This document shows positions 24,355 through 64,000 of a stretch of DNA of 64,000 nucleotides, piece by piece (positions within the stretch are counted from its first letter, which is position 1; the number at the start of each line of letters is the position of its first letter). The stretch is from the NCBI GenBank assembly GCA_951406725.2, contig OX597842.1:19778001-19842000 (forward strand), written 5' to 3'. Below the pieces are notes generated by a model, which made no database searches, was not told where the DNA came from, and worked only from the letters and a program-made list of their open reading frames with translations. The position numbers were made by a program, and so were the translations under genes. The stretch comes from Octopus vulgaris (Eukaryota).

Positions 24355-24479
24355 TTATTTCTTAAAATATTTGTAGCCGAACAAAGCGAGTCCAACAAGG
24401 AGTCCAGCAAGGAAGAGTGAGCCAAAAATGATTCCGACAATCTCGAGTGTAGTTAGTCCATGAGGTTTAGGTTTCGGAT
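24355..24479 (-). CDS. Gene A terminal exon: stalk, transmembrane helix and short tail
   Basis: Acceptor tttattgtttgtcaattgcag. In phase 1 it translates (N)PKPKPHGLTTLEIVGIIFGSLFLAGLLVGLALFGYKYFKK*, in frame with the upstream Ig-like exon. Confidence 0.85.
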
Positions 24480-24667
24480 CTGCAATTGACAAACAATAAA
24501 ATATATACCTTTTGTTTTTTAATAAAAAAGCTTGACCATTTTCATACTAAACTATTAAAAAATACTTCCATTTCTGTTATACAAATTCCATTTCAAAGTG
24601 ATCTAAAGGAAAAGTCCCCATCAAAATTTCCAGTAACACTATGTTGCACACATGAGCTTGGTTATAT

Positions 24668-25205
24668 AAAGCCTTGTGAGTGGATTTGGTAGACGGAAAC
24701 TGAAAGAAGCCCGTCGTATATATGTGTGTGTTTGTGTGTCTGTTTGTCCCCCTAGCATTGCTTGACAACCGATGCTGGTTTGTCTACATTCCCGTTACTT
24801 AGCGGTTCAGCAAGAGAACCAATTTGGTAGATGGAAACTGAAAGAAGCCCGTCGTATATATGTGTGTGTTTGTGTGTCTGTTTGTCCCCCTAGCATTAAT
24901 TGACAACCGATGCTGGGGTGTCTACGTCCCCGTTACTTAGCGGTTCAGCAAGAGAACCAATTTGGTAGATGGAAACTGAAAGAAGCCCGTGCGTATATAT
25001 GTGTGTGTTTGTGTGTCTGTTTGTCCTCCAAACATCGCTTGACAACCGTTGCTGGTTTGTCTACATCCCCGTTACTTAGTGGTTCGGCAAAAGAGAACTC
25101 ATAGAATAAGTACAAAGAATAAATCCTGGGGTTGATTTGCTCGACTAAAGGCGGTGCTCCAGCATGGCCACAGTCAAATGACTGAAACAAGTAAAAAGAG
25201 AAAGA
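24668..25205 (+). mobile_element. SINE family-1 3' part with internal triplication (paralogous copies at about 50712-51010, 57170-57568 and 62449-62845)
   Basis: Family-1 body and tail; an approximately 137-bp segment is repeated. Confidence 0.85.
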
Positions 25206-25834: not shown

Positions 25835-26083
25835 TCTTTATCTCCAAATCAATGTCTGCAGCATTAAGGTTGTCATCATCAAATTTCCAAGTCAAACATT
25901 CCTTAGTTACGTTTCTGATCCAAAGCGTGGAGGTATCTTCTAAATGAGTCACTTTATACTGAGAGCTATTAACGCATGTCCTGTCACATTCATATTTATA
26001 ATTGTGGCACTTCCAAACCACCGGTCGTTTCATATCAGATATTGTTATCGAAAGGGTGAGGTTTCCATTGAGCACAGCAGGTC
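25835..26083 (-). CDS. Gene A Ig-like exon A2 (249 bp, phase 1-1)
   Basis: Acceptor gatttctttatttcag, donor gtaagg. Open frame (x)PAVLNGNLTLSITISDMKRPVVWKCHNYKYECDRTCVNSSQYKVTHLEDTSTLWIRNVTKECLTWKFDDDNLNAADIDLEIK. Confidence 0.88.
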
Positions 26084-27780: not shown

Positions 27781-28412
27781 AAGAAGAATATATTTACCAC
27801 TTTGGGTGATGTTATACTTTTGTGTCCTTGACAAACCTGTAAAGATGAAAACAAAAATTTTGATTTTTGAAAATTTTGAAGTCCATTGTGAAGATGGCCC
27901 CTCTACTTTCCCTCAACCAGGAAGGGCAACCAGTTTTTATCTGCTCGGGGCCCATGGCAAAGGGGATCATACAGTGGACATGTCTGAAAGGGCTGAAGAC
28001 CAGCAACTGCCATTTTGTCAAAACCCTAATAAACTTTTTCAGGTTTCACTTGAAGAGGAAAATCAGGGTGGAGAGGTAAGTGCTGGCTTCCAAGCAGTTT
28101 GTTGAAAGGTGGGTGAGAGGGGTGAGCATTACCTGAGTGAATGGGCCTTCTCTCAGAGTGTACCTGTATATTGGAGAGGAAAGACTGGGAGAGGGCATCA
28201 ACCCTGGTGGCCAGGGAGACCTTGGATTTTGTGGGCTTTCTTTATGTGTGGCCCTTCAAAGTCCCCCTTCTATCAGGGGTTTTACTTTGACTTTCTTTTA
28301 TTCATTGTATGACTTTTTACATGCTAAAACCCACACTGGACCCTCCCGAATGTTTTGCTTTGTGTTAGCCCTCTGTGGTTAATAAAGAAATTATTATAAA
28401 TCATTTCCTTAC

Positions 28413-28661
28413 TCTTTATCTTCAAATCAATTCTTCCAATATTAAGGTTGTCATCTTCGAATTTCCAAGTCGAACATTTCTTAGTTACTTTTCTGATCCA
28501 AAGCTTGGAGGTATCTCCACTATGTATTACTTTATAGTAAGGGCCATCAGCGCATGTCCTGTCACATTCATATTTATAATTCTGGCACTTCCAAACCACC
28601 GGTCGTTTCATATCAGATATTGTTATCGAAAGGGTGAGGTTTCTATTGAGCACAGCAGGTC
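28413..28661 (-). CDS. Gene A Ig-like exon A1 (249 bp, phase 1-1)
   Basis: Same splice sites as A2. (x)PAVLNRNLTLSITISDMKRPVVWKCQNYKYECDRTCADGPYYKVIHSGDTSKLWIRKVTKKCSTWKFEDDNLNIGRIDLKIK. Confidence 0.88.
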
Positions 28662-29320: not shown

Positions 29321-31219
29321 TTAGATCAGAGACTTTGTGTCACTTTGGAAAGTATATATTTTGGACAAGAGTTTAGTGGAGTCATCTGTAGCCGAGCAGT
29401 TATTCTGTGCTGATGAAGGGAAATAACCCAGAGACCATTGGTATGCAGATAGATGATGTTTCCTAAGACTAAATTTACAGTATCATTCGTCCTAACCAAG
29501 ACTGCCACATTATGTTGGCAAATATATATATATATAAGTTCAGCAAAAATTTAGATTCAAATGAATATGGTACTTAATTTAGATGCACCAGAATTTTGTA
29601 TGGTGTTATCCATAGAAATCCGTGGGGTGATTATAATGAAAATAAGCAATAAGAATGACTCCGGTAATTTGGTACGATCGTTTCGTACTACATCATTTTA
29701 TTAAATTTTGTAAGTATTACAACAGTTTTAAAATACTGAGCACTCATCAGCCAATTATAGAGGTTTTCTGTTAATACAAACATTTTCATATCACGTGGCA
29801 ACATTATAGAGAAGGTAGATATATAGACAAAGATGTGGATTTAAATTTTAAGAACGTATGATGTAGTGGAACAACCAAATCTTAGTACCTCATATGTTCT
29901 TAAAATTTAAATCCACATCTTTGTCTATATATCTACCTTCTCTATAATGTTGCCACTTGATTTGATAACTTTTTTATTAATGGAAAGCCTCTATAATTGG
30001 CTGATGAGTACTCAGCATCTTATAGAGGGATTAGGCTATTATCAGCTCCCGGAAAAGATTTTAACAGGATACTTTTAGAGATGATGAGGACAGCAGTAAA
30101 GAAGAAGCTGGATTTAGGAAGAACCGTTCATGTGGAGATCAAACCGCCACTCTTGGTATCATTGTAGAGCAAAGCGCAGAGTGGAATGCACTCTATCTGC
30201 GACAATTTCATCTCAATTGAAGGAGAGGGGCCTTCTCCGTCCGGGTTGCGGATCCGTGGAATAAGCTGCCGGACGAGATAGTGAAGATGCCGACGACCGC
30301 TCGATTCAAAGTCTCCCTTGACCACAAATGGCCTGAACTCTTTGCATGAACACCACCCTGTACATAACTCCATGTCCCCCTAAATGGCCTTGCTTTTTTT
30401 GCTTTTTGAGCCAAAAAATTAACTTAACTTAGCTTAACTTGGATATAGAAAGAAAGGTAGGCCTAAGAACTCGTGGCAGAGATCAACAAAAAACGAACTA
30501 GAGAAAGGGGGACATTCATGGCAGAGTATAAGTACAGAGGCGAAAAATTATGCAACATGGAATTCAATTATGAGTGGCCTATACTCCGCGTTGGAGGGTC
30601 AAAGGCAGGAAAGAAGAATATATTTACCACTTTGGGTGATCTTATACTTTTGTGCCCTTGACAAATCTGTAAAAGACGAAAACAAAAATTTTTGATTTTA
30701 AGATGAAGTAATTCAAAATAATGTGAATAAATGAACATTACATTTCACAGTAATTTGATTGCTAAAGGATTAAACCAGCCATATCTGTTTTATGTTCTAA
30801 GTGGCTGGGTCCAGCCCCTCACACCTACCCTACAATGTCAGTCTAAAAATAAACAATCACATCATCAAAATGTCAAAACTACAAGATAACGAATGATTAA
30901 TTCAAAAACCAAGTCTAAATGAGCATTACATTAAACGGAATAAACTGATTGCTAACGAGTTAAAGTAGCCATACCTGGCACAAAGATTCTACCTGTTTCG
31001 TGTTTAAACTGGTAATGGGTCATCCTTTTACACCTGTCTTACAATGTCATTCTAAAAATGAACAGACAAGGACTGCTATGTAAAGAAGTGCTGATCTTTA
31101 ACTGCGGAGGCAATCTGTGGAAGAGGTGGACCCTGAAAGGTGCAGGACAAAACGGTGGAACATGAGGGCTTTGGATGTTGAGGCTGACATGTATTGATAA
31201 GTGACTGCGACTGCCAAAA

Positions 31220-32735: not shown

Positions 32736-33529
32736 CGGATAGATAGACAGTGGTTTTGAAAGATAGTGGGTGATTCTCAAAGACAGTACCAAGATTAGTG
32801 TTGTATGGGGTGGGTGATGGGTATGAGGACTCACTGTTAATTAACCAGGGTGGGATATAGGGAATGTTTTGGGACCTGAGGTTCTGTAAATAAGTTGTTA
32901 ATGAGGCAGATAATTTATAAAGTTAATCCAAACATGAAAGCACAAAAAAAAACACAACACGAGGACATGGAACAAATATAGTATTATTGGACGCTCAGGA
33001 AAGAAGGAGGGTTTAATGTTTCGAGTGGAGCTCTTCATCGGAAACAAATGAGAAGGAAAGATCAAGAGAAGGGAAGACAGAGAATTTATAAGTGGGATTG
33101 TGGTGGAAAATCATGAATTTTGGAAATTTTCTTGCATAAGATGCATCAACAAAATTGGGAAAATCCCTACCAAAACAAAGAAAATCCTCCTTATGTGAGT
33201 GACCCCATTCCAGACCCCTGTGCACCTGAGTAAGTTTGCCTTAACAAAAATAAGTTATGGAAAGAAATTAAATAAAATATAAATAAAACTTACAGAGAAA
33301 TGTTACAAACAATAAGCAGAACAAGATCCATTTAGCCATGATCTGAAAAAATAATTTTCAAAAGCTGCAAAATAACAAAGTTTATAGCCCAGGGTCCGAG
33401 GCTGGTCAGGCTGAGAAAAACAAACAGTCAAAATGTCATCAGTCACTCTTTAATAGATTTATGGTCAAGCCTGTGGCATTGGAGATCTTATTCTTAACTA
33501 TTTCGAATACTACAGAACGCTGTACAGTA

Positions 33530-34018: not shown

Positions 34019-35963
34019 GTAAAATTTGAAGAGAGACAGATTTAAACTTTGCACTGTTTCTGCCCCCCCCCCTTTTAGTTTTATCAATTACTATACAACA
34101 CTAAAGCAACTGCATTTTTTGTCTCATTCTTTCTTCTTGATGAGTGAAAACAAATACCAAATTACAGGTATTTGTATAATTGTGGCTTTCCAGGTAGAAT
34201 CCTGGTTTAAACAGTCCTTATAATTTCAGAAAATTTTTGCAACACACACAAATGAATATGATTATTGAAAAGACAGCATGGTGTTTCACTTTCTGGATCA
34301 TAAAATGAAATATCATCTTAATCATTAATTCAAGCGAATCAATGTCAGAAAATAGCATATCGATATATTACTGATGTTCACCTTAATTTTACGAAATAAT
34401 CTTTAATATATATCTTGTGTTTTTATTACAATAAAAACCAATATTTACAACAGAATCTCTTCTTTTTGGACAAACCTTATAGTTGTGGCTGGATGCAATT
34501 GGAAGTTTCAAAAACCAACTGGGAAATACAAACAACGAAAAGAACTTAGTTTCTGAAAGAAAAAAAGAAAAGATATTATTTCAAAAGTTTTACTGAAAAG
34601 GTACTGATTTTTAAAAAATTCAAAAAGTAAAAAGGTTATGAGGGGTTATATGGGGTACTTAAACGAAAATTCCACCAAAAATCAAATTTTAAAACCAGTT
34701 TTTTTTAACAGCATAAATGCTTTGATGGGGATAAAAATATTGAAAAACATTGAATACAGGTTAGAGCGAGGAAGAAACAAGAAAGGTGGTTGTGGGATGT
34801 GTTAGAAACAACAGGCAGATCTCCCTTAAATGACACACCTTTCTTTACTCATAACTTTCTGACAAATGGATATTAATGGATATATTGGAATTTGTTGTGA
34901 AAAAGTTTTCCGAGGGTGGGGCGAAAAGTTTTGGAAAATTCACATCAGTCGGCTTTATTTCCTCATAACTTTTGGAAAAATGGATATTTCTTTAGTGGAA
35001 TTTTCAACAAATATCATTCGGATTGTGAAGGTGACGATTATATCAGAATTTAATATGTAAACAAAATTTGTGGGCTCACACACATACATAATTACATACA
35101 CATCGTGAATTGAAACTTGAAATTTTGATAGCACAATGTTATATCTGTCAGTATGTGTGTGTGTGTGCAAACCTATCATATTTTTTTTTTCATAATAGAC
35201 TTCAATATTACTCTTTGCTCTTTTACTTATTTCAGTCATTTGGCTGCGGCCATGCTGGAGCACCGCCTTTAGCCGAGGAAATCGACCCCCAGGACTTATT
35301 CTTTGTAAGCCCAGTACTTATTCTATCGGTCTATTACGTACATGTATATGAAAGATAAGGAGTGTAGATGTGTGTTTGGGTGTGATTAACTAGAAGTAGA
35401 TACAGCTGAATAGGGCGTGGTTGCGCGTACATCCGTTTTCTTTCATAAACAGGGACACACATCTTTTACTTTCTCCTCCTCTCACTCAGAAGCAAATATC
35501 GCCTTCCACTCATCATCAAAATAAAAGAAAATAAAATAATTTTTTACGGGAATTAACGAACAATCCGCTGATCAAATTCGACGCTTCTGCAGCCAAAGCC
35601 GAAAGATTTCCAGACGTAATTCTTCAGTTTGGGTAAACAACGTCAGTCACTGACACAAACTTCTCTTATGGCACAAACGAAGAGGCGGTACTACTTGAGT
35701 ATAGACGTCACGGTGCGCACTTGTGTAGTCATGACTAGTCGATCCATACTTTGAGTTTTATTTACTTTGATTTTAAAAAATTCACTAACACTAACCCTGA
35801 CCCTACTTTTAGCCTTTCGTCATTTTTTCTTCATTGATAAATTAATTTAATTGTTACGCGTGTGTCTAAAATTATTCGTTTTGTTTTGAGACTCACGTGT
35901 ATTGTTTAAACTATTTTCCATTGCTTAAGAAAGAAAAAAACCCAAAGCAATGGAAAATAATTT

Positions 35964-42946: not shown

Positions 42947-43728
42947 GGATCTTTTCGTTTTGAACGGCAGACAATTTCTAGTTAACTAAACACTTTTAAA
43001 CTTCGTATACTGGTAGAATGTGTCAAAATAAAACATTTTTTTCTCTTGGCTTTCTTGAGAAAATTGTAATTTGTAAGTTTAACGTAGTTTAATTTTTCGA
43101 ATTTTAACCAATCCTATGCTCTCTTTTGAGTTAAAATCATTTGCTGCGTCTAAAACTGATACAGCATCCTGTAACTAACCCTAATCCTCCCCCTAACCCT
43201 TACCTTAATTTTTTTTCTTAATTATTAAATTAATTTAATTGTTACGCGTGTAAAGAAAATTAAAGCAATGGAATTAAATTAATTTAACAATTAAGAAAAA
43301 AAATTAGGGTTAGGGTTAGGGTCAGGTTTAGGGTTAGTTACAGGATGTTGTCTAAGTTTTAGACGCAGCAAATGATTTTAGTTGAATGGAGGTAATTGAT
43401 TGGTTAAAATTGCCGAAATGCTCGGATTTTCAGACGAAATATCTTACAAACTATAGAATTTTCTCAATAAAACCAAGAGAAAAAGATGTTTTATAAACAC
43501 ATTCTACCAGTATACGAAGTTTAAAAGTGTTTAGTTACGTGGAAATTATTTTAAAAAACTGCCGTTCAAACCGAAAAGATCCCAAATATCTTACAAACTA
43601 TAGAATTTTCTCAATAAAGCCAAGAGAAAAAGATGTTTTATAAACATATTCTACCAGTATACGAAGTTTAAAAGTGTTTAGTTAACTAGAAATTGTGTTG
43701 ACACGTGCCGTTCAAAAGGAAAAGATCC
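42947..43728. mobile_element. GGATC-TIR MITE (Merlin-like), palindromic, with internal TTAGGG-like repeats
   Basis: 8-bp TSD TCCGTTGT/CCCGTTGT. (CCCTAA)-like run at about 43175-43205 and (TTAGGG)-like run at about 43304-43337. Confidence 0.85.
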
Positions 43729-44284
43729 CCCGTTGTCATTGCTTGGTAAAGCGAACCAGACCCCATTAACTTTTGGTATTCCTGCAGATAGCACAATACT
43801 AGATTTCAGTGGTACATCGTCAATTACAATTAAAACCACGGGCCACGAAAGAAATCGTTTTACTGTCATGTTAGCTTGTATGGCTGACGGTATAAAACTT
43901 AAACCTTATATAATATTCAAACGTAAGACAGCACCCAAAACCGTGGAATTTCCAACAGGGATTATTGTTAGATATCAACCCAGGAGTGGCTGTGTGGTAA
44001 GTAGCTTGCTTACGAACCATATGGTTCCGGGTTCATTCCCACTGCGTGGCACCTTGGGCAAGTGTCTTCTACTATAGCCATGGGACGACCAAAGCCTTGG
44101 GAGTGGATTTGATAGACGGAAACTGAAAGAAGCCTGTCGTATATAATGTATGTGTGTGTGTTTATGTGTTTGTCCCCCCACCAACATCGCGGACTATACT
44201 CGAGGATTTACGGTAGATAAAAACAGAACAGGCACACACACACACAAGAACAAGCACGCACACACTATGGAGAAACATGAAATC

Positions 44285-46309: not shown

Positions 46310-46830
46310 TGCTTTGTTGCTACCCAAGGACAAAAACTGTGTTACACAATGTTATCTGTTGAAGGCCTTCAACCCCTCTCAAATACAATGTTCATATAAG
46401 ATTGAGTCTGTATTTTCATGAAGCCTTGTTTAAAAAGAATCTAGCAGTAAATGTCGTATATAAATGAACCCCAAGCCTTTGTCATAACCAAAGCTACACT
46501 CTGTCTTAAACTGTTGTTTCTCTCTTATTTCAGAATATCAGAGGACATTGGCATGAGAGGAATTTTACTGCAGAAGCGTCATCAATATTTATCATATTTT
46601 GAAGTCGATGTTACACAGAACCTGACAGAAGAATCCTGTTTCTGTAATTAACAGACACTCCTGCACCTTTAAATATAAACAACATTAATGGGTTCTCATT
46701 AGAGGCATCTGCATCATTCTGAGAGCCTTCCTCTTTGGTGAATTACTCTCTGAAGTAGATCACTTGACCACTCACAGACTCATTCATTAGGAGAGAAACC
46801 ATGTCATTGTGATATCTGTGGTGAATGGTT
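46310..46830 (+). pseudogene. Third ZNF paralogue, opposite orientation, finger array deleted
   Basis: 46310-46650 matches the reverse complement of the ZNF 5' flank (about 10600-10485 and 10075-9870). 46745-46830 matches the last finger, stop and 3' UTR. Confidence 0.8.
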
Positions 46831-46859
46831 TCAGGAAGGTTTCCAGTAATACAGGTCAG

Positions 46860-47840
46860 GGATCTTTTCGGTTTGACCGGCAGTTTTTAAAAATAATTTC
46901 CACGTAACTAAACACTTTTAAACTTTGTATACTGGTAGAATGTGTTTATAAAACATCTTTTTCTCTTGGCTTTATTGAGAAAATTCTATAGTTTGTAAGA
47001 TATTTGGGATCTTTTCGGTTTGAACGGCAGTTTTTTAAAATAATTTCCATGTAACTAAACACTTTTAAACTTCGTATACTGGTAGAATGTGTTTATAAAA
47101 CATCTTTTTCTCTTGGCTTTATTGAGAAAATTCTATAGTTTGTAAGATATTTGGGATCTTTTAGGTTTGAACGGCAGTTTTTAAAAATAATTTCCACGTA
47201 CCTAAGCACTTTTAAACTTTGTATACTGGTAGAATGTGTTTATAAAACATCTTTTTCTCTTGGCTTTATTGAGAAAATTCTATAATTTGTAAGATATTTG
47301 GGATCTTTTCAGTTTGACCGGCAGTTTTTTAAAATAATTTCCACGTAACTAAGCACTTTTAAACTTTGTATACTGGTAGAATGTGTTTATAAAACATCTT
47401 TTTCTCTTGGTTTTATTGAGAAAATTCTATAGTTTGTAAGATATTTGGGATCTTTTCGGTTTGACCGGCAGTTTTTAAAAATAATTTCCACGTAACTAAG
47501 CACTTTCAAACTTCGTATACTGGTAGAATGTGTTTATAAAACATCTTTTCTTCTTGGCTTTATTGAGAAAATTCCATAGTTTATAAGATATTTGTTGTTT
47601 TTTCCTTCAATTTCTGCAATTTCAACCAATCAATGACGTCTCTTGAGGTGAAAACATTCTCTGCCGTATGAATATGTCCCTCGTTTAAGAAACAGATTGG
47701 GTTTATTAACATTTCTGAAGAAATAAGATACCTTCCCCGCACCCCTAACCTAACCCTAGAGCAGATTGAAATGCAATAGATCGATACTAGGGTCATAATT
47801 ATGGGTGACATTTTGATATCACACTGCTAGAAAAAAATCC
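46860..47840. repeat. GGATC-TIR MITE with 5 tandem terminal units of about 147 bp
   Basis: GGATCTTTT starts at about 46860, 47007, 47154, 47300 and 47448. Confidence 0.9.
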
Positions 47841-47895
47841 CATTTTCTGTAGTGGTTTCTTCATTAAAAGAAGAATTTCCTGAAGGCCATGAACA

Positions 47896-48083
47896 ATATT
47901 GATACAGTCACTCTTCTCTATGATGAGAAATATATCTGTAGTTAATTGTCTTTTTTCAGAGAAGGATATACCACAGAATCAGTTACATGGTTTCTCTTCC
48001 ATATCAATGTGTGTCTGTGTTTATCTAAGAGATTTATTTGAGAGAACCATTCACCACAGATATCACAATGACATGGTTTCTCT
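47896..48083 (-). pseudogene. ZNF 3' UTR fragment (decayed fingers), inverted relative to 46745-46830
   Basis: Near-identical to 7095-7282. Confidence 0.85.
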
Positions 48084-48549
48084 AATTTCCACGTAACTAA
48101 ACAGCCAGGGATACAGGCATCCAGCAACAGGACCTCCGTAATGCTATGATGGATCGTGAAGTCTGGCGTAGCATGGTAAATTCCATTGTCTCTACCACGG
48201 TCGCGATACCAGAGGGCGCACACTCTCTTACCCTGATGTAATCTCCAGGTGTACAGGCATCCAGCAACAGGACCTCCGTAATGCTATGATGGATCGTGAA
48301 GTCTGGTGTAGCATGGTAAATTCCATTGTCTCGACCACGGTCACGATACCAGAGGGCGCACACTCTCCTACCCTGATGTAATCTCCAGGGATACAGGCAT
48401 CCAGCAACAGGACTTCCGTAATGCTATGATGGACTGTGAAGTCTGGCGTAGCATGGTAAATTCCATTGTCTTGACCACGGTCAAACAATGATGATGATGA
48501 TATCTAATTCTCTCCCAATTTTACCATTTGTCTGTCGTAGTTCACTGTG

Positions 48550-48934: not shown

Positions 48935-50374
48935 AGTTCACTGTGAACCTGAAAGGAAAGATTTTGCACCTTTTATGGCATTCACAACCATCCAATAACA
49001 CAAAAAAAGTTGGACACTTGATAATAACTTATAATTTTATGCAAGAAATAATCAGCGTTTCAGATATAAAAATAAATAAACAATTATACAGAAAAGGAAA
49101 TAAAATCGCAAAAGGTCCTTGACTTGCTTAAAGAAAACAACTTCCAGGCCAGATTCCCGAAGCAGTAGGAATTGTGGGGCCAGTGTATTACTGTGAAAGG
49201 TGAGTATTTCACAGGAGATGTTGTTAAAACTTTGGTAAATTAGTAATTTTTATGAAACATAGCTTGTCCGAGAACTTTTTGATACCATCTCGTATTTTTC
49301 TTGCAAATTCTGTAAAGAGTTTTTATTTTTTTTAATAAATAAATATTTTGATTTTGTTTGCTTATTTTTCTGTTGTTTTTATCTTATATAACATGTCTTT
49401 ACATGATACACGTATAATACAATACCACATTAAAATACAAATCCTAAACCAAAAGAAACACAAACAGGAGGTGCAGCAAGTACCCTTATAGGGATCACCG
49501 AACCCATTCTGTAAGGCGAGGCGCCAACAATGGTAAGAACTTCACTGTGGCAAATGTCACAGGTGGAAGAAATGGGTCACACTTCATTTCCTATGCTTAA
49601 GGATTTTGTTCTCGTTGGCTACGGAAGCAGTGACCCTTTGATTATAATTGAAGATATTTATGCTAAAGCAATGGGTATACATATGCAAATGTACCCCACC
49701 GACTTTGTTTCTTCATAACTTCTGGAAAAATGGGTATTTTTAAATGAAAATTTTGAGAAATACCTTTAAGAAAGTGTAGATTGCAATTATATTGGAATAG
49801 CACACGTTGGTGGGACACCACACATACGCATACACATCACATTCTTTTGCAAGAAATTTGTTTTTATAAAAAATTTCAATTAAAAAATATGAATCGTTTC
49901 TCTTTGTATTCACTTTTTGAAATTCTAAGATTCAGTCAAAATTTTCAAATTTGGAATATTCATGTAATTTTCCATGCTGAATCTGCTACCGCTCACTTTT
50001 TCTGGACATAATTTTTTAAAAAGTGGACCTTTTCTGTTTGTGTTTTTCCCTTCAGCTCCTTCGGTTTCAAATTTATTGATTTCAAGTTTAGTGTATTGAT
50101 GTAGTTTTGTCTGTTAATTATATAAATGAAATTAGTTGTTGTCCTAAATTGATAAATATACAGTTAATAGCTTTTAAGATTTTTAAATTCCCAGTAAAAG
50201 ACGGAGCAGAGTTTTGGAAAAAATATTGCTAAAATATGGATATAATTTATTTAAAAAACCAACTATGCCAATGCAGTCAGTGAAAGTCTTAATCTGATAA
50301 ATAGAATTATTTTTTTCTTTTAGAGGATAAATATAGATAAAAAAACACAAATTGTAGCGTTCTTATACAAATGT

Positions 50375-50508
50375 TTATTTCTTAAAATATTTGCAGCAGA
50401 AGAAAGAGTGTCCGACAAGGATTATAGCAAGGCTGAGTATGCCAAGAATGATTCCAACAATCTCGAGTGTTCTGAGGGGTCTTGATCCATTAGGTTCAGG
50501 TTACGGAT
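50375..50508 (-). CDS. Gene B terminal TM exon with a premature TAA at its third codon
   Basis: Acceptor tttattgtttgtcaactgcag. (N)P*PEPNGSRPLRTLEIVGIILGILSLAIILVGHSFFCCKYFKK*, with the stop at 50501-50503. Confidence 0.8.
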
Positions 50509-51639
50509 CTGCAGTTGACAAACAATAAAATATATACCTTTTGTTTTTAACAAAAAATAGTAATATCTCCCAAGTTTGACCATTTTCATACTAAACTATT
50601 AAAAAATACTTTCGTTTCTGTTATACAAATTCCATTTCAAAGTGATCTAAAGGAAAAGTCCCCATCAAAATTTCCAGTAACACTATGTTGCACACATAAG
50701 CTTGGTTATATAAAGCCTTGTGAGTGGATTTGGTAGACGGAAACTGAAAGAAGCCCGTTGTATATATGTATATATAATGTATATATATATGTGTGTTTTT
50801 GTGTCTGTTTGTCCCCCTAGCATTGCTTGACAACTGATGCTGGGGTGTCTATGTCCCCATCACTTAGCAGTTCAGCAAGAGAACCGATAGAATAAGTACT
50901 AGGCTTACAAAGAATAAATCCTGGGATCGATTTGATAGACAAAAGGCGGTGCTCCAGCATGGCCACAGTCAAATGACTGAAACAAGTAAAAAGAGAAAGA
51001 GAAAGAGAATATAACCCGCCCCCCACACACACCTTGGTATTGACCCCCTCATCCTTTGCCCTTGTGGCAAATAAAAGAAACCCTTATTATATACAACTAT
51101 CAGCTGAGTCCATTGTGAAGATGGCCCCTCTACTTTCCCTCAACCAGGAAGGGTAATCAGTTTTTATCTGCTCGGGGCCCATGGCAAAGGGGATCATACA
51201 GTGGACATGTCTGAAAGGGCTGAATACTAGCAATTGGCATTTTTTCAAAACCCTAATAAGCTTTTTCAGGTTTCACTTGAAGAGGAAAATCAGGGTGGAG
51301 AGGTAAGTGCTGGCTTCCAAGCAGTTTGTTGAAAGGTGGGTGAGAGGGGTGAGCATTACCTGAGTGAATGGGCCTTCTCTCAGAGTGTACCTGTATATTG
51401 GAGAGGAAAGACTGGGAGAGGGCATCCACCTTGGTGGTCAGGGAGACCTTGGATTTTGTGGGCTTTCTTTACGTGTGGCCCTTGAAAGTCCCCCCACTAT
51501 CAGGGATCTTACTTTGAATTTCTTTTATTCTTTGTATGACTTTTTACATGCTAAAACCCACACTGGACCCTCCCGAATGTTTTGCTTTGTGTTAGCCCTC
51601 TGTGGTTAATAAAGAAATTATTATAAATCATTTCCTTAC

Positions 51640-51888
51640 TCTTTATCTTCAAATCAATTCTTCCAACTTTAAGGTTGTCGTCTTCAAATCTCCAAGTCAA
51701 ACATTCCTTAGTTACGTTTTTGATCCAAAGCTTGGAGGTATCTCCAAAATGAGTCACTTTATAGTCAGGGCCATCAGCGCATGTCCTGTCACATTCATAT
51801 CTATTATCCTGGCAAATCCAAGCCACCGGTCGTTTCATGTGTGGTATATATATCACAAGGTTGAGATCTCTATAGAGCTCAGCAGTTC
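51640..51888 (-). CDS. Gene B Ig-like exon B3 (249 bp, phase 1-1)
   Basis: (x)TAELYRDLNLVIYIPHMKRPVAWICQDNRYECDRTCADGPDYKVTHFGDTSKLWIKNVTKECLTWRFEDDNLKVGRIDLKIK, with AG and GTAAG boundaries. Confidence 0.88.
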
Positions 51889-53188
51889 CTGAAATGAAGA
51901 AATCAGTTAAGAAGTTTGCTTCCAAATCATACGATCCCGGGTTCAGTCCCACTACACAGCACCTGGGAAAGTGTCTTCTACTACAGCCTCAGCCTTGTGA
52001 GTGGATTTTCAAGATGGAAACTGAAAGAAGCCCATTCTATGTATAATTGTGTGTATGTGTGTGTATATATATATATACATACACACTTGTGTCTTTCAAA
52101 GCCTTGTGAGTGTATTTGATAGATGGAAACTGAAAGAAGCCCATTGTTTATATATATGTAAATAGAAAATTATTATTTCTAAGTCCCTGAATGAGAAACA
52201 TTCAGTAACATTAATCGAGAGTAAAGATTATTTGCCAACATAATATGGCAGTCCTAGTTAGGGTGATTGTTACTGCTATTTAGCCCTAGGAAACACTGCC
52301 TCCAGCTGGGTATATGACACATTATCTATGTCCTATGGGATGCTAAACTCCCTTGTTTGAAAATATAAGGATGCAGCTAGTGCGTCATATAGCCAGCTGG
52401 AGGCAACGTTTCCTAGGGCTAAAGAACAGTAACAATCGTCCTAACCAGGACTGCAATATTATGTTGGCAAATAATCTTTACCCTAGAGTACTGTTACTCA
52501 ATGTCTTTTGTTCAGAGATTTAGAAATAATTTTCTATTTGTTAGATCAGTGACTGTGTGTCACTTTGAAAAGTATATATTTTGGACAAGAGTTTAGTGGA
52601 GTAATCTCTAGACGAGCAGTTATTCGGTGCTGATGAAGGGAAATAACCCAGAGACCATTGGTATGCAGATAATGTGCTGTATAACCAGCTGGAGATGATG
52701 TTTCCTGAGACTAAATAACAGTACCATTCGTCCTAACCAGGACTGCCACATTATGTTAGCAAATAATCTTTACTTTATATATATATATATATATGAGTTC
52801 AAATGAAAATGGTACTTAATTTAGATGCACCAGAATTTTGTATGGTGTTATCCATAGAAATCCGTGGGGTGATTATAATGAAAATAAGCAACAAGAATTA
52901 CTCCGGTAATTTGGTACGATCGTTTCGTACTACATCATTTTATTAAATGTTGTAAGTATTACAACAGTTTTAAAATACTGAGCACTCATCAGCCAATTAT
53001 AGAGGTTTTCCATTAATACAAAAATTTTCATGTCGAGTGGCAACATGATAGAGAAGAAAGCCTCTATAATTGGCTGATGAGTACTCAGCATCTTAAATCT
53101 GTTGTAATACTTACAACATTTAATAAAGTGATGTAGTACGAAACGATCGTACCAAATTACCGGAGTTATTCTTGTTGCTTATTTTGAG

Positions 53189-53560: not shown

Positions 53561-56500
53561 ATTAAAAGAAGCTGCAGTGGCATTAGGAAGGGCATCCAGC
53601 TGTAGAAACACTGCCAGATCAGGCAGGAGCCTGGTGCAGCCTCCTGGCTTCCCAGACCCCGGTCGAACCGTCCAACCCGTGCTAGCATGGAAAGCGGACG
53701 TTAAACGATGATGATGATGATGATGATGAAATAGCAGTAGAAATGTTTCATCCATTATTTTCTAAGATAGGGCAGGAAGAAAATGTGCCTAATGACTGGA
53801 AAGAGGGACTCATTGTGAAATTGCCAAAAAAAGGAGATTTAAGCTTTTGCGGAAATTATAAACGGATTATGCTATTATCAGCTCCCGGAAAAGATTTTAA
53901 CAGAATACTTTTAGAGATGATGAGGACAGCAGTTGACAAATTGTTGTGTAAAGAAGAAGCTGGATTTAGGAAGAGATCAAATCGCCACTCTTTGTATCAT
54001 CGTAGAGCAAAGCGCAGAGTGGAATGCACCGATTTATTGAATTCGAAAAAGCATTCGATAGTGTAGATAGGGAAGGCTTATTGAAAATTATGCAGCACTA
54101 TGGCATACCAGACAAGTACATATCTATAATAAGAGCAACTTACCAAGGAATGTCATGCCGAGTCTTGCAAGGAAACGGAGCTACGGATAAATTCGATATA
54201 AAAACAGGAGTTCGACAGGGCTGTATACTTTCTCCCGTTTTATTTCTATTAGTCATAGATTGGATTATGAAGGAAACTACGATTGAAAGCCAAACAAGCA
54301 TTGAATGGACGGATGTGGAAGCTGTAGAAGATCTCGACTTTGCAGATGATAGGGGGCTGCTTTCACAAACATAGCCAAATGCAAAATAAAATGTCAAAAT
54401 TAGAAGCAATAGCTTCCAAACTAGGATTGAAAGTCAACCTCAAATCAATAATTATGCACGTTAATGAAGTAAACATCAAATGTATTAAACTAGAAACTGG
54501 TGAACTAGAGGATGTAGCCAAGTTTATGTATTCAGGTAGTAAGATAACGTTTTCAGGTGTCACCGACGAAGATATTAAGGTGAGAATAAGTAAGGCAAGG
54601 ACCGTTTTTCACCTGTTAAAGAAAGTATGGAGCGCAAGTGTAATTTCAATAAACAACAAAATAACCTGTCGAAAGAGCTGTTCTTAACTCCTGCTCCAGA
54701 GCGTCAGCTCGGAGTCACTCCAAAAAGCTCTATCTGTGACGATTTCATCTCAATCGAAGGAGAGGGGCCTTCTCTGTCAAGGTTGCAGATCCGTGGAATA
54801 AGCTGCCGGACGAGATAGTGAAGATGCCGACGACCGGTCGGTCCAAAGTCTCCCTCGACCACAAATGGCCTGAACTCTTTGCATGAACACCACCCTGTAC
54901 ATAACTCCATGTCCCCCTACATGGCCTTTTGCTTTTTGCTTTTTGAGCCAAAATATTAACTTAAGATTTTTTAACACTAATGTTAAAGCGATGTTCTTGT
55001 ATGGGGCTGAGACATGGCGAACAAAAGTTAAGTCAAATAAGCAAATACAACCATTCATCAACAGATACTTGCGTAGTATACTTAAAATTAGATGGCCCGA
55101 ACACATACGCAATATGGAACTATGGTAAAGAACAAATCAAGTTTCGATTAGGGAGCAAATATTTAAGAAAGAGTGGAAGTGGATAGGTAGCACGATTAGA
55201 AAAGACACACTAAATGTAGCGTAAAGTGTTTAAAGTGGAAACCGGTTGGATGTAAAAAGAAAGGTAGGCCTAAGAACTCGTGGCGTAGATCAACACAAAA
55301 GGAACTAGAGAAAGGGGGACATTCATGGCAGAGTATAAGTACAGAAGTGAAAAATTATGAAACATGGAAGTCAATTATGAGTGGCCTATACTCCACGTTG
55401 GAGGGTCAAAGGTAGGAAAGAAGAATATATTTACCACTTTGGTAGATCTTATAAATGCTATCACTTGAGAAACCTGTAAAAGATGAAAACAAAAATTTTG
55501 ATTTTAAGATGAAATATTTCAAAATAATGTGAATAAATGAACATTATATTTCACAGTAATTTGATTGCTAAATGATTAAACCAGCAATATCTGTTTTATG
55601 TTCTAAGTGGCCGGGTCCAGCCCCCACACCTACCCAACAATGTCAGTCTAAAAATAAACAACCACATCATCAAAATGTCAAAACTACAAGATAATGAATG
55701 ATTAATTCGAAAACCAAGGCTAAATGAGCATTACATTAAACGGAATAAACTGATTGCTAACGAGTTAAAGTAGCCATACCTGGCACAAAGATTCTACCTG
55801 TTTCGTGTTTAAACTGGTAATGGGTCAGCCTTTTACACCTGTCTTACAATGTCATTCTAAAAATGAACAGACAAGGACTGCTATGTAAAGAAGTGCTGAT
55901 CTCTAGCTGCGGAGGCAATCTGTGGAAGAGGTGGACCCTGGAAGGTGCAGGACAAAACGGTGGAACATGAGGGCTTTGGATGTTGAGGCTGACATGTATT
56001 GATAAGTGACTGCAATTCCTGGGGATTTGCTCTTCTTCATAAGATATGTCAAGCTAATGGAAATCAAGGATGTGGCCAGTGTCGGTAATTAGTAAAAGGC
56101 ACCTGTGCCGGTGACGTGTAATTTATAAATCTTTCATCAAAACTTTATTGAGAATTTTCAAAATGTGCTCCATCGGCCCCCTGGATATTTCAAATGTATC
56201 TGTAGACTTGTGAAACACATTTGGAAGTATTTGAGGAGTTTATCTTCTGCACTGCTAACTGAATGCATTCTTTAAGTTCAGCTAAAAGATTGCTCCATCT
56301 GGGGCATTGTGGGAAAGAAATTAATTGCAATCGTATTGAAAAAAGTTGTCATGGACAGATAAGGAATGAAAATAAAATTATAAACAAAATTAAAAATTTA
56401 ATCACTTAACATATATTAAATATGTGAAGCAGAAACAAAAAGGACCTTTAAAAAAAGGGTCCAATTTCACTGAAATAGATAATTAATTCTGGGACAGTCT

Positions 56501-58197
56501 GTATTGAAAACACTTAGCCCTACTCAAATGACCCTACACTCTGAAATCTTTACCAAGAACAAAGTCCATGGGGTAAAGAGTGGCTATAAGGGGAATCCAG
56601 GTGGGCAGATATGGAGATAACGATGTAAATAAACAAATAAAACTGAGTGGGTTAGATATACATCCATGCGTACACGTTAATAGAGAGGAAGCAAAGACTG
56701 AAAAATTTCAGACGGAGAATATTCAAGCATCAGAAATCTGAATTAAATATTAACAGAGCAAACTTACACAGACTAGAAAGGCACAGAAAATCAAAGGGGA
56801 GAATGTATGGTGTTACAGCTCCTTTCTTGGCGATCGGGGTTACTTCATCTTTGGTAGATGTACCATCCATACTCACAAATAGGTCTCACTTTTTTTCACC
56901 AAAAATTTAGATAAAAATCAGGGGTACAAACTATCCAATAGATATTACAGGGATCTGAAGTGGTGTATCGGTAGTCCATGGCATACCCTGGACCTGGGCT
57001 TTTCAGTTTTAAAATTGTTATGGAAACTTTTCTGCAATGTTTACTAGAAAGCAGAAACTGGAAGTTTGGTATTTGGTATTTTTTTGACATCCACTCACCC
57101 CAATCTTTAGTTTAAAAATTTTAATAATTGCAAACCCTACTTACAAAGTTATAGTAAGAGTTATCAATAGGCACAGAAGTGGCTGTGTGGTAAGTAGCTT
57201 GCTTACGAACCACATGGTTCCGGGTTCAGTCTCACTGTGTGGCATGTTGGGCAAGTGTCTTTTACTATAGCCTCGGGCCGACCAAAGCCTTGTGAGTGGA
57301 TTTGGTAGACAGAAACTGAAAGAAGCCCGTCGTATATATGTATATATATATATGTGTGTTTGTGTGTCTGTTTGTCCTCCAAATATCGCTTGACAACTGA
57401 TGCTGGTGTGTCTACGTCCCTATTACTTAGCAGTTCGGCAAAAGAGAACCGATAGAATAAGTACTAGGCTTACAAAGAATAAATCCTAGAGTCGATTTGA
57501 TCGACAAAAGGCGGTGCTCCAGCATGGCCACAGTCAAATGACTGAAACAAGTAAAAAGAGAAAGAGAATATAACCCCACCCACACACACACCTTGGTATT
57601 GACCCCCTCATCCTTTGCCCTTGTGGCAAATAAAAGAAACCCTTATTATATACAACTATCAGCTGAGTCCATTGTGAAGATGGCCCCTCTACTTTCCCTC
57701 AACCAGGAAGGGCAACCAGTTTTTATCTGCTCGGGCCCCATGGCAAAGGGGATCATACAGTGGACAAGTCTGAAAGGGCTGAAGACCAGCAACTGCCATT
57801 TTGTCAAAACCCTAATAAACTTTTTCAGGTTTTACTTGAAGAGCAAAATCAGGGTGGAGAGGTAACTGCTGGCTTCCAAGCAGTTTGTTGAAAGGTGGGT
57901 GAGAGAGGTGAGCATTACCTGAGTGAATGGGCCTTCTCTCAGAGTGTACCTGTATATTGGAGAGGAAAGACTGGGAGAGGGCATCCACCCTCGTGGTCAG
58001 GGAGACCATGGATTTTGTGGGCTTTCTTTACGTGTAGCCCTTGAAAGTGCCCCCACTATCAGGGGTTTTACTTTGACTTTCTTTTATTCTTTGTATGACT
58101 TTTTACATGCTAAAACCCACGCTGGACCCTCCCGAATGTTTTCCTTTGTGTTAGCCCTCTGTGGTTAATAAAGAAATTATTATAAATCATTTCTTAC

Positions 58198-58446
58198 TCT
58201 TTATCTCCAAATCAATTTTTCCAACATTAAGGTTGTCATCATCAAATTTCCAAGTCGAACATTTCTCAGTTACTTTTCTGATCCAAAGCGTGGAGGTATC
58301 TCCAAAATGAGTCACTTTATACTGAGAGCTATTAACGCATGTCTTGTCACATTCATATTTATAATTGCGGCACTTCCAAACCACCGGTCGTTTCATATCA
58401 GGTATTGTTATCGAAAGGGTGAGACATCCATTGAGCACAGCAATTC
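58198..58446 (-). CDS. Gene B Ig-like exon B2 (249 bp, phase 1-1)
   Basis: (x)IAVLNGCLTLSITIPDMKRPVVWKCRNYKYECDKTCVNSSQYKVTHFGDTSTLWIRKVTEKCSTWKFDDDNLNVGKIDLEIK, with AG and GTAAG boundaries. Confidence 0.88.
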
Positions 58447-61400
58447 CTGAAATAATGAAATCAGTTAAGAAGTTTGCTTCCAAATCATATGGTCCCGGGT
58501 TCAGTCCCACTACACTGCACCTTGGGAAAGTGTCTTCTACTACAGCCTGTGTGGATTTGCTAGATGGAAACTGAAAGAAGCCCATTGTATGTATCTGTGT
58601 GTGTGTGTATGTATATGTGTGTGTGTATATATGTATATACATACACACTTGTGTGTTTCAAAGCCTTGTGAGTGTATTTGATAGATGGAAACTGAAAGAA
58701 GCCCTTTGTTTATATATATGTATATATATATGTAAATAGAAAATTATTATTTCTAAGTCACTGAATGAGAAACATTCAGTAACATTACTCGAGAGTAAGG
58801 ATTATTTGCCAACATAATATGGCAGTCCTAGTTAGGGTGATTGTTACTGTTATCTAGCCCTAGGAAACACTGCCTCCAGCTGGGTATATGACACATTATC
58901 TATGTCCTATGGGATGCTAAACTTCCTTGTTTGAAAATATAAGGATGCAGCTAGTGTGTCATATAGCCAGTTGGAGACGATGTTTCCTAGGGCTAAGGAA
59001 CAGTAACAATCGTCCAGACCAGGACTGCCACATTATGTTGGCAAATAATCTTTACCCTAGAGTACTGTTACTCAATGTCTTTTGTTCAGAGATTTAGAAA
59101 TAATTTTCTATTTTTTAGATCAGTGACTGTGTGTCACTTTGAAAAGTATATATTTTGGACAAGAGTTTAATGGAGTCATCTCAAGCCGAGCAGTTATTCT
59201 GTGCTGATGAAGGGAAATAACACAGAGACCATTGGTATGCAGATAATGTGCTGTATAACCAGCTGGAGATGATGTTTCCTGAGACTAAATAACAGTACCA
59301 TTCGTCCTAACCAGGACTGCCACATTATGTTGGCAAATAATCTTTATTTTATATATATATATATATATATATGTATACACACAAAATAAGAAAATGGAGG
59401 AATAGATTCCTTTCAATCATCAACTTCCAGATAATACCAATTCATATAATTTATTAACTAATTATTTAGATTTAATAGGACAGGGCTGTATACTTTCTCC
59501 CGTTTTATTTCTATTATTCATAGATTGGATCATGAAGGAAACTACGATTGAAAGCCAAACAAGCATTGAATGGACGGATGTGGAAGCTGTAGAAGATCTC
59601 GACTTTGCAGATGATATAGCGCTGCTTTCACAAACATAGCCAAATGCAAAATAAAATGTCAAAATTAGAAGCAATAGCTGCCAAACAAGGATTGAAAGTC
59701 AACCTCAAATCAAAAATTATGCACGTTTATGAAGTAAACTTTGAATGTATTCAACTAGAAACTGGTGAACTAGAGGATGTAGCCGAGTTTATGTATTCAG
59801 GTAGTAAGATAACGTTTTCAGGTGGCACCGACGAAGATATTAAGGTGAGAATAAGTAAGGCAAGGACCGTTTTTCACCTGTTAAAGAAGGTATGGAGCGC
59901 AAGTGTAATTTCAATAAAGAACAAAATAACCTCTCGAAAGAGCTGTTCTTCACTCCTGCTCCAGAGCGTCGGCTGCGGGGTCACTCCGAAAAGCTCTATC
60001 TGTGACGATTTCATCTCAATCGAAGGAGAGGGGCCTTCTCTGTCCGGGTTGCGGTTCCGTGGAATAAGCTGCCGGACGAGATAGTGAAGATGCCGACGAC
60101 CGCTCGATTCAAACTCTCCCTTGACCACAAATGGCCTGAACTCTTTGCATGAACACCACCCTGTACATAACTCCATGTTCCCCTACATGGCCTTTTGCTG
60201 TTTGCTTTTTGAGCCCAAAAATTAACTTAACTTAAGTTAAGAATTTTTAACACTAACGTAAAAGTGGTGTTATTGTATGGGGCTGAGACATGGCAAACAA
60301 CAGTCAAGTCAAATAAGCAAATACAATCATTCATCAACAGATGCTTGCGTAGTATACTTAAAATTAGATGGCCCCAACACATACGCAATATGGAGCTATG
60401 GCAATGAACAAATCAAGTTTTGATTAGGGAGCAAATATTTAAGAAAAGGAGGAAGTGGATTGGTAGCACAATTAGAAAAGACACACTAAATGTAGTGAAA
60501 AGTGCTTTAAAGTGGAAACCGGTTGGATATAGAAAGAAAGGTAGGCCTAAGAACTCGTGGCATAGATCAACACAAAAGGAACTAGAGAAAGGAGGACATT
60601 CATGGCAGAGTATAAGTACAGAGGCGAAATATTATGCAACATGGAATTCAATTATGAGTGGCCTATACTCCACGTTGGAGGGTCAAATGTAGGAAACAAG
60701 AATATATTTACCACTTTGGGTGATCTTGTAAATGTTTGCACTTGAGAAACCTGTAAAAGATGAAAACAAAAATTTTTGATTTTAAGATGAAATAATTCAA
60801 AACAATGTGAATAAATGAACACTATATTTCACAGTAATTTGATTGCTAAATGATTAAACCAGCAATATCCGTTTTATGTTCTAAGTGGCCGGGTCCAGCC
60901 CCTCACACCTACCCTACAATGTCAGTCTAAAAATAAACAATCACATCAGCAAAATGTCAAAACTACAAAATAAAGAATGATTAATTCAAAAACCAAGACT
61001 AAATGAGCACTACATTAAACGAAATAAACTGATTGCTAACGAGTTAAAGTAGCCATACCTGGCACAAAGATTCTACCTGTTTCGTGTTTAAACTGGTAAT
61101 GGGTCAGCCTTTTACACCTGTCTTACAATGTCATTCTAAAAATGAACGGACAAGGACTGCTATGTAAAGAAGTGCTGATCTCTAACTGTGGAGGCAATCT
61201 GTGGAAGAGGTGGACCCTGGAAGGTGCAGGACAAAACGGTGGAACATGAGGGCTTTGGATGTTGAGGCTGACAAGTATTGATAAGTGACTGTGATTTCTG
61301 GGGATCTGCTCTTCTACAGAAGATATGTCAAGCTAATGGAAATCAAGGATGTGGCCAGTATCGGTAATTAGTAAAAGGCACCTGTGCCAGTGACGTGTAA

Positions 61401-63475: not shown

Positions 63476-63724
63476 TCTTTATCTCCAAATCAATTTTTCG
63501 AACGTTAAGGTTGTCATCATCAAATATCCAAGTCAAACATTTCTTAGTTACTTTTTTGATCCAAAGCGTGGAGGTATCTCCATCCTGTGTCACTTTATAG
63601 TCAGGGCCATCAGCGCATGTCTTGTCACATTCATATTTATAATTGCGGCACATCCAAACCACCGGTCGTTTCATATAAGGTATTGTTATCGTAAGGGTGA
63701 GACATCCATTGAGCACAGCAATTC
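63476..63724 (-). CDS. Gene B Ig-like exon B1 (249 bp, phase 1-1)
   Basis: (x)IAVLNGCLTLTITIPYMKRPVVWMCRNYKYECDKTCADGPDYKVTQDGDTSTLWIKKVTKKCLTWIFDDDNLNVRKIDLEIK, with AG and GTAAG boundaries. Confidence 0.88.
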
Positions 63725-64000
63725 CTGAAATAATGAAATCAGTTAAGAAGTTTGCTTCCAAATCATATGTTCCCGGGTTCAGTCCCACTACACTGCACCT
63801 TGGGAAAGTGTCTTCTACTACAGCCTGTGTGGATTTGCTAGATGGAAACTGAAAGAAGCCCATTGTATGTATCTGTGTGTGTGTGTATGTATATGTGTGT
63901 GTGTATATATGTATATACATACACACTTGTGTGTTTCAAAGCCTTGTGAGTGTATTTGATAGATGGAAACTGAAAGAAGCCCTTTGTTTATATATATGTA

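What the first reader, a model, noticed from the sequence alone, without database searches (positions are those of the whole stretch)
50375..50508. Membrane-bound versus secreted paralogue switch by a single stop codon
Seen: gene A reads CCG AAA CCT at the start of the TM exon, whereas gene B reads CCG TAA CCT, ending the protein immediately after the last Ig-like domain. The rest of the TM frame is still open and all three B domain exons are intact. The stop is in what appears to be the last exon, so exon-junction-dependent NMD would not be expected. Inference: gene B makes a soluble multi-domain form (decoy, opsonin or signal); otherwise it is a very recent pseudogene.
Basis: partly seen in the sequence, partly recalled or inferred. 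Interest (0 to 1): 0.7.

Follow-up and report, generated by a model that had tools for sequence, protein, structure and literature searches.

The report
Anchorless octopus immunoglobulin-like protein gene
An octopus gene from a fast-evolving, unstudied cluster of antibody-fold surface proteins has a real stop codon just before its membrane anchor, shared with a sister species, so it probably makes a released form, a trick known from mammalian receptor families.

Summary
Confirmed. The window is Octopus vulgaris. Gene B's last exon reads CCG TAA where paralogue A reads CCG AAA; lysine is ancestral (28 of 29 comparable proteins). The stop is not an assembly error: an O. sinensis RefSeq isoform ends at the same NP, and spliced contigs of run X17 (organism B) carry it. 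In organism-A runs the exon is spliced, but the stop base was not displayed. The domains fold as Ig without the canonical disulfide and diverge faster than their introns (omega 2.1-2.9), unlike a decaying gene. Corrections: A and B differ by much more than one codon; the open remnant frame is uninformative; and 13 of 14 O. sinensis models splice the same domain to an intact TM exon. A third paralogue stops at the end of the hydrophobic stretch (GPI-signal-like). Best reading: a secreted member of an undescribed octopod Ig-like cluster with TM, GPI-like and soluble ends, working like CEACAM/PSG but not homologous. The protein itself was not detected.

The parts
50375..50508 (-). Gene B terminal exon: Asn-Pro-stop, then an untranslated remnant of the TM frame
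   Evidence: spliced joint 50508-51640 and X17 record 11 (50366-50508, 1 other letter)
50501..50503 (-). Derived TAA (ancestral AAA, Lys)
   Evidence: same end in XP_036369926.1; letters seen in X17 loose end
50374..50379 (-). AATAAA overlapping the ancestral stop; candidate proximal poly(A) signal
   Evidence: the X17 contig ends at 50366; use as a poly(A) site is inferred
51640..51888 (-). Gene B last Ig-like domain exon (249 nt, phase 1/1)
   Evidence: 100% match in P0002
55435..55473 (-). Gene B 39-nt micro-exon (linker and first strand of the last domain)
   Evidence: X17 loose end at 51889 reads the O. sinensis version of it
58198..58446 (-). Gene B Ig-like domain exon
60712..60750 (-). 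Gene B 39-nt micro-exon
63476..63724 (-). Gene B Ig-like domain exon (the gene continues beyond 64000)
24355..24479 (-). Gene A terminal exon, intact: short stalk, TM helix, 9-residue tail; AAA at 24474-24472
25835..26083 (-). Gene A Ig-like domain exon 2
27798..27836 (-). Gene A 39-nt micro-exon
28413..28661 (-). Gene A Ig-like domain exon 1
30628..30666 (-). Gene A 39-nt micro-exon
33294..33342 (-). Gene A leader exon (ATG at 33339, hydrophobic signal-peptide-like stretch)
   Evidence: signal function inferred
34446..34552 (-). Probable 5' untranslated exon of gene A (3' end approximate)
48935..50888 (.). 3' block duplicated with gene A (22936-24823; 84-98% identity): A and B arose by segmental duplication

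Best explanation
Gene B is one copy in a tandem cluster of octopod Ig-like surface-protein genes built of a leader, repeated [39-nt + 249-nt] domain units and a terminal anchor exon. An A-to-T change turned the Lys codon two residues into B's terminal exon into TAA, most simply before O. vulgaris and O. sinensis split. SHOWN: the stop, its presence in two species, splicing of the last domain onto this exon, an Ig fold for the domain, and faster protein than intron change in the domain exons. INFERRED: the mRNA escapes junction-dependent NMD; with its leader (outside the window) it makes a 4-domain (5 in O. sinensis) glycoprotein with no anchor that is secreted; it binds the same kind of ligand as the membrane paralogues and acts as a soluble competitor or decoy, most likely at a host-microbe or cell-recognition interface.
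For: Stop shared with XP_036369926.1, which ends GRIDLKIKNP. X17 record 11 spans 50366-50508 with 1 other letter, at 50456 and synonymous in the remnant frame. X17's two loose ends at 51640 read exactly window 50494-50508, including the stop. The joint 50508-51640 has CT..AC ends in X2 and X6 and depth 0 in DNA run X1. Lys is at this position in 28 of 29 proteins, 6 distinct tails. Fold: pLDDT 86; best VIA Z 10.9, rmsd 2.0 over 86 residues, to an Ig-like domain, and the listed top rows are Ig domains or antibody chains. Five domain exons: 60 of 246 columns vary against 50 of 493 in flanking introns (Fisher p about 1e-6); GY94 omega 2.13-2.95 over all 15 topologies, p 0.003-0.02 against omega=1 for the 5 best; no stop or indel. 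B's last domain has 12 private nonsynonymous and 3 synonymous changes. O. vulgaris and O. sinensis split about 2.5 Mya (10.1101/2023.05.16.540928, passages).
Against: No B peptide was found in the stored, truncated parts of the mucus and ink proteome tables. The family peptides found in mucus belong to a member with a TM and tail, so reaching mucus needs no stop. 13 of 14 O. sinensis models put an intact TM exon after the same domain. The base at 50503 is not among the 40 rows shown for X1, X2 or X6 (88 hidden). X1 (DNA) shows only the paralogue-type contig across the exon. By depth arithmetic the X6 joint may come from other paralogues. The selection signal covers the five exons' whole history and cannot be dated to after the stop; gene conversion can homogenise introns; the counts are small. 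B's leader was not seen in the window. No ligand is known.
Confidence: 0.6

Rival explanations
1. One gene with a choice of ends: the same domains are spliced either to the stop exon (soluble) or to a more distant intact TM or GPI-signal-like exon, so the switch is alternative terminal-exon use and not a difference between genes.
For: O. sinensis LOC115225115 models end in TM (13 of the 14 that carry this domain), in NP-stop (1 of 14), or after another domain in a tail-less hydrophobic end (P0020). Hydractinia Alr genes do this (PMC9546547, passages).
Against: In the window the only other TM exon downstream is A's, 27 kb away and past A's own leader and domains. Both X17 loose ends shown at 51640 read the stop exon (904 loose ends not shown). 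Short-read models in a cluster of 85-95% identical exons can be chimeric (inference); the O. vulgaris models themselves fuse B, A and a histone.
Confidence: 0.2
2. B is a transcribed, recently disabled duplicate: the stop drifted to high frequency and any truncated protein is irrelevant.
For: No protein evidence. Anchor-disrupting changes recur in this exon lineage: an internal TGA in the paralogue-type contig of X1 and a 14-nt gap in X2 record 17. About 2.5 My is short for decay to show.
Against: The three domain exons and two micro-exons in the window are open with canonical splice sites. The O. sinensis form is open over five domains. The last domain differs between the species by 8 residues, needing at least 9 nucleotide changes, while the untranslated remnant differs at 1 of 143 nt (Fisher p 0.10, suggestive only).
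Confidence: 0.15
3. The stop is conditional: A-to-I editing (UAA to a Trp codon, two edits) or readthrough restores the TM form from the same mRNA.
For: The frame after the stop is open and hydrophobic. Coleoids edit mRNA heavily (recalled, no call).
Against: No unusual structure around the stop (z 0.30). Both A's are unpaired in the spliced-mRNA fold (pairing 0.04 and 0.09), and the best long-range duplex (-31.9 kcal/mol) lies within the range of 6 control sites (-18.5 to -32.9). X17 record 11 shows no change at 50501-50502 (contigs drop rare variants). An open remnant is expected by chance.
Confidence: 0.03
4. The TAA is a sequencing or assembly error.
For: The base was not displayed for the three organism-A runs, and DNA run X1 shows only a paralogue-type contig there.
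Against: The same stop is in a separate assembly of another species and in X17 contigs.
Confidence: 0.02

Closest known systems
Mammalian CEA family (CEACAM/PSG)
   Same: A clustered, fast-evolving Ig family whose members are TM, GPI-anchored or secreted. GPI signals arose by stop codons in the TM exon, and secreted forms by nonsense or splice changes, some proposed as decoys (PMC2832619 and PMC5856374, passages). The octopus cluster shows the same three kinds of end.
   Different: No sequence homology found: the family profile matched 0 of 177,635 PDB sequences at E<=1. The closest TM paralogues have 9-11-residue tails; I did not scan tails for ITIM or ITAM motifs. Here the stop sits at the start of the TM exon and leaves the remnant in the 3' UTR. 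An analogy, not membership.
Hydractinia Alr family
   Same: Clustered invertebrate Ig genes whose V- and I-set folds lack the canonical B-F disulfide, with alternative TM exons and possibly secreted isoforms (PMC9546547, passages).
   Different: No Fn3-like region; near-identical repeated domains; a conserved Trp in the C strand and a Cys-x3-Cys pair; no allorecognition data; homology not tested directly.
O. sinensis LOC115225115 isoform X6 (XP_036369926.1)
   Same: The same last domain (8 of 82 residues differ) and the same NP end: the probable orthologous product.
   Different: Five domains against four modelled in O. vulgaris; named only 'uncharacterized protein'. The O. vulgaris models seen (CAI9743596.1, CAI9743597.1) skip the stop exon and fuse B to A.
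Thy-1 / V-set-like single-domain GPI proteins
   Same: The nearest named clusters by language-model features for the single-domain member P0044 (score 0.94).
   Different: A lead only: no alignment, and no Cys in the predicted B and F strands.

Membership tests
Immunoglobulin superfamily (V/I-set-like) | Ig beta-sandwich fold | tested here: met
   Model of family member P0044, pLDDT 86; VIA Z 10.9, rmsd 2.0, 86 residues; Foldseek best E 9.4e-4 to an obscurin Ig domain; Pfam I-set 28.9 bits for whole P0012 (cut-off 23.7), with no single stretch passing. P0012 models as five repeats of the same strand pattern, at pLDDT 69 only.
Immunoglobulin superfamily (V/I-set-like) | Core Trp in strand C | tested here: met
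   W51 is invariant in 29 sequences and lies in strand 49-53; the strand lettering is my assignment.
Immunoglobulin superfamily (V/I-set-like) | Canonical B-F disulfide | tested here: not met
   No Cys in strands 36-41 or 92-96 of the model; the invariant Cys are 60 and 64. This marks a non-canonical Ig domain; such domains are accepted as IgSF on structure (PMC9546547).
CEACAM/PSG family | Sequence homology to CEA N/A/B domains | tested here: not met
   Profile search of PDB chains gave 0 matches at E<=1; the 36 named hits of 37 are all Octopus; CEACAM chains appear only as fold-level rows at 12% identity.
CEACAM/PSG family | TM, GPI and secreted members derived by changes in the TM exon (works-like criterion) | tested here: inconclusive
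   A crude hydropathy rule on 50 distinct tails gave 26 TM+tail, 11 tail-less hydrophobic and 13 without anchor; several of the last are probably truncated models (P0001, P0051, P0056 and P0055 left out). No GPI predictor or biochemistry was available.
Secreted protein | Signal peptide present and no anchor | tested here: inconclusive
   No anchor: shown. The leader lies outside the window; it is hydrophobic in CAI9743596.1 and P0012; no signal-peptide predictor was run.
Secreted protein | Protein detected in extracellular fluid | tested here: inconclusive
   No B motifs in the stored, truncated parts of two proteome tables; a third supplement was unreadable.
Hydractinia Alr | V-set + I-set + Fn3-like architecture and an allorecognition role | tested here: not met
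   Only repeats of one domain type precede the anchor; the role is not testable here.

The most novel reading that the evidence does not exclude
Octopods have independently evolved a CEACAM/PSG-like recognition system: a chromosomal cluster of non-canonical Ig genes under diversifying selection in which one TM exon lineage was converted separately into a secreted form (stop at its start, gene B) and a GPI-anchored form (stop at the end of the hydrophobic stretch, CAI9743624.1), giving receptor and soluble-decoy pairs for microbe or self recognition.
Probability: 0.3. Interest if true: 0.75.

Novelty: new member of a known kind. Interest (0 to 1): 0.48.

Why it matters
Loss of an anchor by a stop codon is a known route, and RefSeq already lists the O. 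sinensis product without comment. What seems not to be described in the library searched is the family itself: an Ig-fold cluster found only in octopods in these searches, with omega near 2 and three kinds of C-terminus. It is a concrete candidate for diversified recognition molecules in cephalopods, and gene B would be the easiest member to study, because it needs no engineering to be soluble.

Tried and rejected
No whole genome is held, so other terminal exons outside the window could not be placed. Pfam on single domain exons: 0 of 5 pass a cut-off. PDB sequence profile search: no match. No run was on record as RNA; RNA status of X2, X6 and X17 is a guess, backed here only by the spliced joint. 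DNA run X1 gave no B-type contig over the exon, which is no evidence of absence. I first read the X6 joint as B-specific and rejected that: its depth 1797.7 equals 297.6 (paralogue-type contig) plus about 1500 from a contig that stops between 50493 and 50490, where a TM-intact paralogue would diverge. The open remnant frame was rejected as evidence of constraint. The editing or readthrough switch found no structural support. Alternative acceptors near 50508 that would skip the stop in the TM frame: none among the 17 AG sites listed. The other 'soluble' O. sinensis tail (P0003) matches repeated sequence beside zinc-finger arrays and is probably spurious. Six locus ids gave 0 papers. The readable supplements of PMC9712504 (one file not searched) and PMC13230822 held none of the ids. 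The PMC11431876 supplement was unreadable; its main text, seen as passages, does not name the locus. 10.1101/2022.06.11.495763 (passages) treats other novel genes. The four look-ups of earlier findings were empty. No complex prediction was run, as no binding partner is claimed.

Full report
1. Observation. Both genes lie on the minus strand. Five 249-nt phase-1 domain exons were found: three for B (63724-63476, 58446-58198, 51888-51640) and two for A (28661-28413, 26083-25835). Each domain is preceded by a 39-nt micro-exon, and A has a leader exon with ATG at 33339. Joined by coordinates, A gives an open leader + 2 domains + TM + short tail, and B an open run of domains ending Asn-Pro-stop. 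The stop is TAA at 50503-50501; A has AAA at 24474-24472. The terminal exons differ at 15 of 96 nt in the TM part and by a 9-nt indel. The 3' flanks are 84-98% identical, so A and B come from a segmental duplication. No alternative acceptor among the 17 AG sites listed near 50508 skips the stop in the TM frame.

2. Identity. B's last domain matches an Octopus vulgaris model at 100% (9 hits of 15 candidates). The O. vulgaris models seen, CAI9743596.1 and CAI9743597.1, skip the stop exon and fuse B to A; the longer also starts with a histone. They show a leader and a fourth domain for B beyond 64000. A profile search gave 37 hits among 6473 candidates: 36 named, all Octopus, and 1 unnamed. One search of representatives gave 27 hits, of which P0056 looks like a repeat artefact; among those looked up, one is from Argonauta. 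No squid or cuttlefish name appeared, but not all hits were looked up.

3. Is the stop real? O. sinensis XP_036369926.1 (LOC115225115 isoform X6, 496 aa, five domains) ends GRIDLKIKNP. I did not see its nucleotide sequence, so that it uses the same exon is inferred. Four runs were laid on 49000-52000. In X17 (organism B) one contig spans 50366-50508 with a single other letter, at 50456, synonymous in the remnant frame. Two loose ends at 51640 read exactly window 50494-50508, including the stop. X17 also carries two domain changes (I14V, H16N) and the linker variant of the O. sinensis proteins. The joint 50508-51640 with CT..AC ends (GT-AG on the minus strand) is seen in X2 (1 contig) and X6 (2 contigs) and not in DNA run X1. 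Limits: position 50503 is not among the 40 rows shown (88 hidden). In X2 the joint contig has window letters at 50490 and 50493 by depth arithmetic, so it is B-type, but its stop base was not displayed. The X6 joint may come from paralogues, although X6 has B letters at 50424-50425 (0 of depth 842 differ). X1 shows only a paralogue-type contig. So the stop is directly confirmed in organism B and in the O. sinensis annotation, and not directly in other organism-A individuals. The species split about 2.5 Mya (10.1101/2023.05.16.540928, passages).

4. Direction and relatives of the exon. Of 29 fetched proteins whose tail starts Asn-Pro or Asp-Pro, 28 continue with Lys (6 distinct tails) and one stops, so TAA is derived. 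The paralogue-type contig in X1 carries changes at 50493, 50490, 50454, 50425-50424 and 50413 that read like O. vulgaris CAI9743624.1 (P0039), a separate model on a contig of the same length as the one holding P0002. That protein keeps the Lys and stops at the end of the hydrophobic stretch with no tail. It is B's closest terminal-exon relative, closer than A, and its end resembles a GPI signal (inference; no predictor run). A second tail-less hydrophobic end occurs in P0010, P0020, P0029 and others. A crude rule sorted 50 distinct tails into 26 TM+tail, 11 tail-less and 13 unanchored, several of the last probably truncated models (four proteins left out). Against a clean gene-level switch: 13 of 14 O. 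sinensis models with B's last domain end in an intact TM exon. That exon type exists in O. vulgaris too (CAI9743612.1) but not in this window.

5. Fold and evolution. A single-domain member modelled at pLDDT 86 and matched Ig domains (Z 10.9, rmsd 2.0, 86 residues; Foldseek best E 9.4e-4). It has the C-strand Trp, no Cys in the strands that I assign as B and F, and an invariant Cys-x3-Cys. The O. sinensis soluble form modelled as five such repeats at low confidence (pLDDT 69, pTM 0.31) and has five N-glycosylation sequons. Among the five window exons, dN/dS exceeds 1 in 9 of 10 pairs. Variable columns are 60 of 246 against 50 of 493 in flanking introns (p about 1e-6), and GY94 omega is 2.13-2.95 over 15 topologies (p 0.02 against omega=1 on the best tree). 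Gene conversion and small counts limit this, and it cannot be dated relative to the stop.

6. How it most likely works. Shown: B mRNA splices onto the stop exon; no canonical downstream intron appears among the 15 joints shown (157 hidden); an AATAAA lies about 120 nt after the stop. Inferred: a stable mRNA and a secreted multi-domain glycoprotein that shares ligands with the membrane paralogues and competes with them (0.6). Rivals: alternative terminal exons of one gene (0.2), a transcribed disabled copy (0.15), editing or readthrough (0.03; no supporting structure), and error (0.02). The open remnant does not help decide: 81% of simulated copies stay open after 5 changes. Three peptides of family member LOC115230628 are in an O. 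vulgaris skin mucus proteome (PMC10138644, supplement rows). That member has a TM and tail, and no B motif was found in the stored, truncated tables of the mucus and ink studies. Supplements that I could not see (PMC11431876, one file of PMC9712504, the cut parts of the two tables, bioRxiv files) may hold B peptides or expression data.

7. Comparison and novelty. It works like the CEA family, where stop codons in the TM exon gave GPI signals and nonsense or splice changes gave secreted members proposed as decoys (PMC2832619, PMC5856374; passages). It also resembles Hydractinia Alr in having non-canonical Ig folds with alternative ends (PMC9546547; passages). It is a member of neither: no sequence match was found. 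It is a non-canonical IgSF member by fold. Five library searches (listings and abstract starts only) showed no description of the family; the library lacks most subscription papers. Verdict: real and conserved, a known kind of event, in an apparently undescribed family. Interest 0.48.

Noticed in passing
window 25835-63724 (five domain exons): The domain exons diverge more than twice as much as their flanking introns (24% against 10% of columns variable) and have omega above 2, pointing to diversifying selection on the Ig-like domains.
   Followed up: yes
P0039 / CAI9743624.1; X1 record 2 laid on 50293-50527: A sister copy of B's terminal exon keeps the Lys but has a TGA at the end of the hydrophobic stretch, giving a GPI-signal-like end; X2 record 17 shows a similar copy with a 14-nt gap at 50432.
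   Followed up: partly
window 447-818 (-) and 1088-1459 (+): A divergent histone H2B/H2A pair. Two O. vulgaris models (CAI9743596.1, CAI9743612.1) fuse an H2B to Ig-like genes, which suggests histone pairs are interspersed with, and perhaps co-duplicated with, these genes.
   Followed up: no
window 4400-9500 (-), remnants at 46730-48100: C2H2 zinc-finger arrays, with a 619-codon open frame at 9147-7291; remnants between B and A were used as false exons in the fused O. vulgaris models.
   Followed up: no
P0002/P0011 C-terminus against window 24355-24479: The public model ends in a TM exon whose stalk differs from A's while its TM is identical; it is not in the window and probably lies beyond position 1. 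TM parts of two paralogues look more alike within each species than between them, hinting at gene conversion.
   Followed up: no
window 54214-58722 against 59479-64000: A 4.5-kb direct repeat at 95.5% identity: the recent duplication of a whole [micro-exon + domain exon] unit within gene B.
   Followed up: no
window 46859-47594, also near 10751-11120 and 43437-43729: A 147-bp tandem repeat family, about five copies at 95% identity in the largest array.
   Followed up: no
P0067 / LOC115230628: Peptides of this TM-bearing family member are in O. vulgaris skin mucus (PMC10138644 supplement), the only protein-level evidence for the family seen here.
   Followed up: partly
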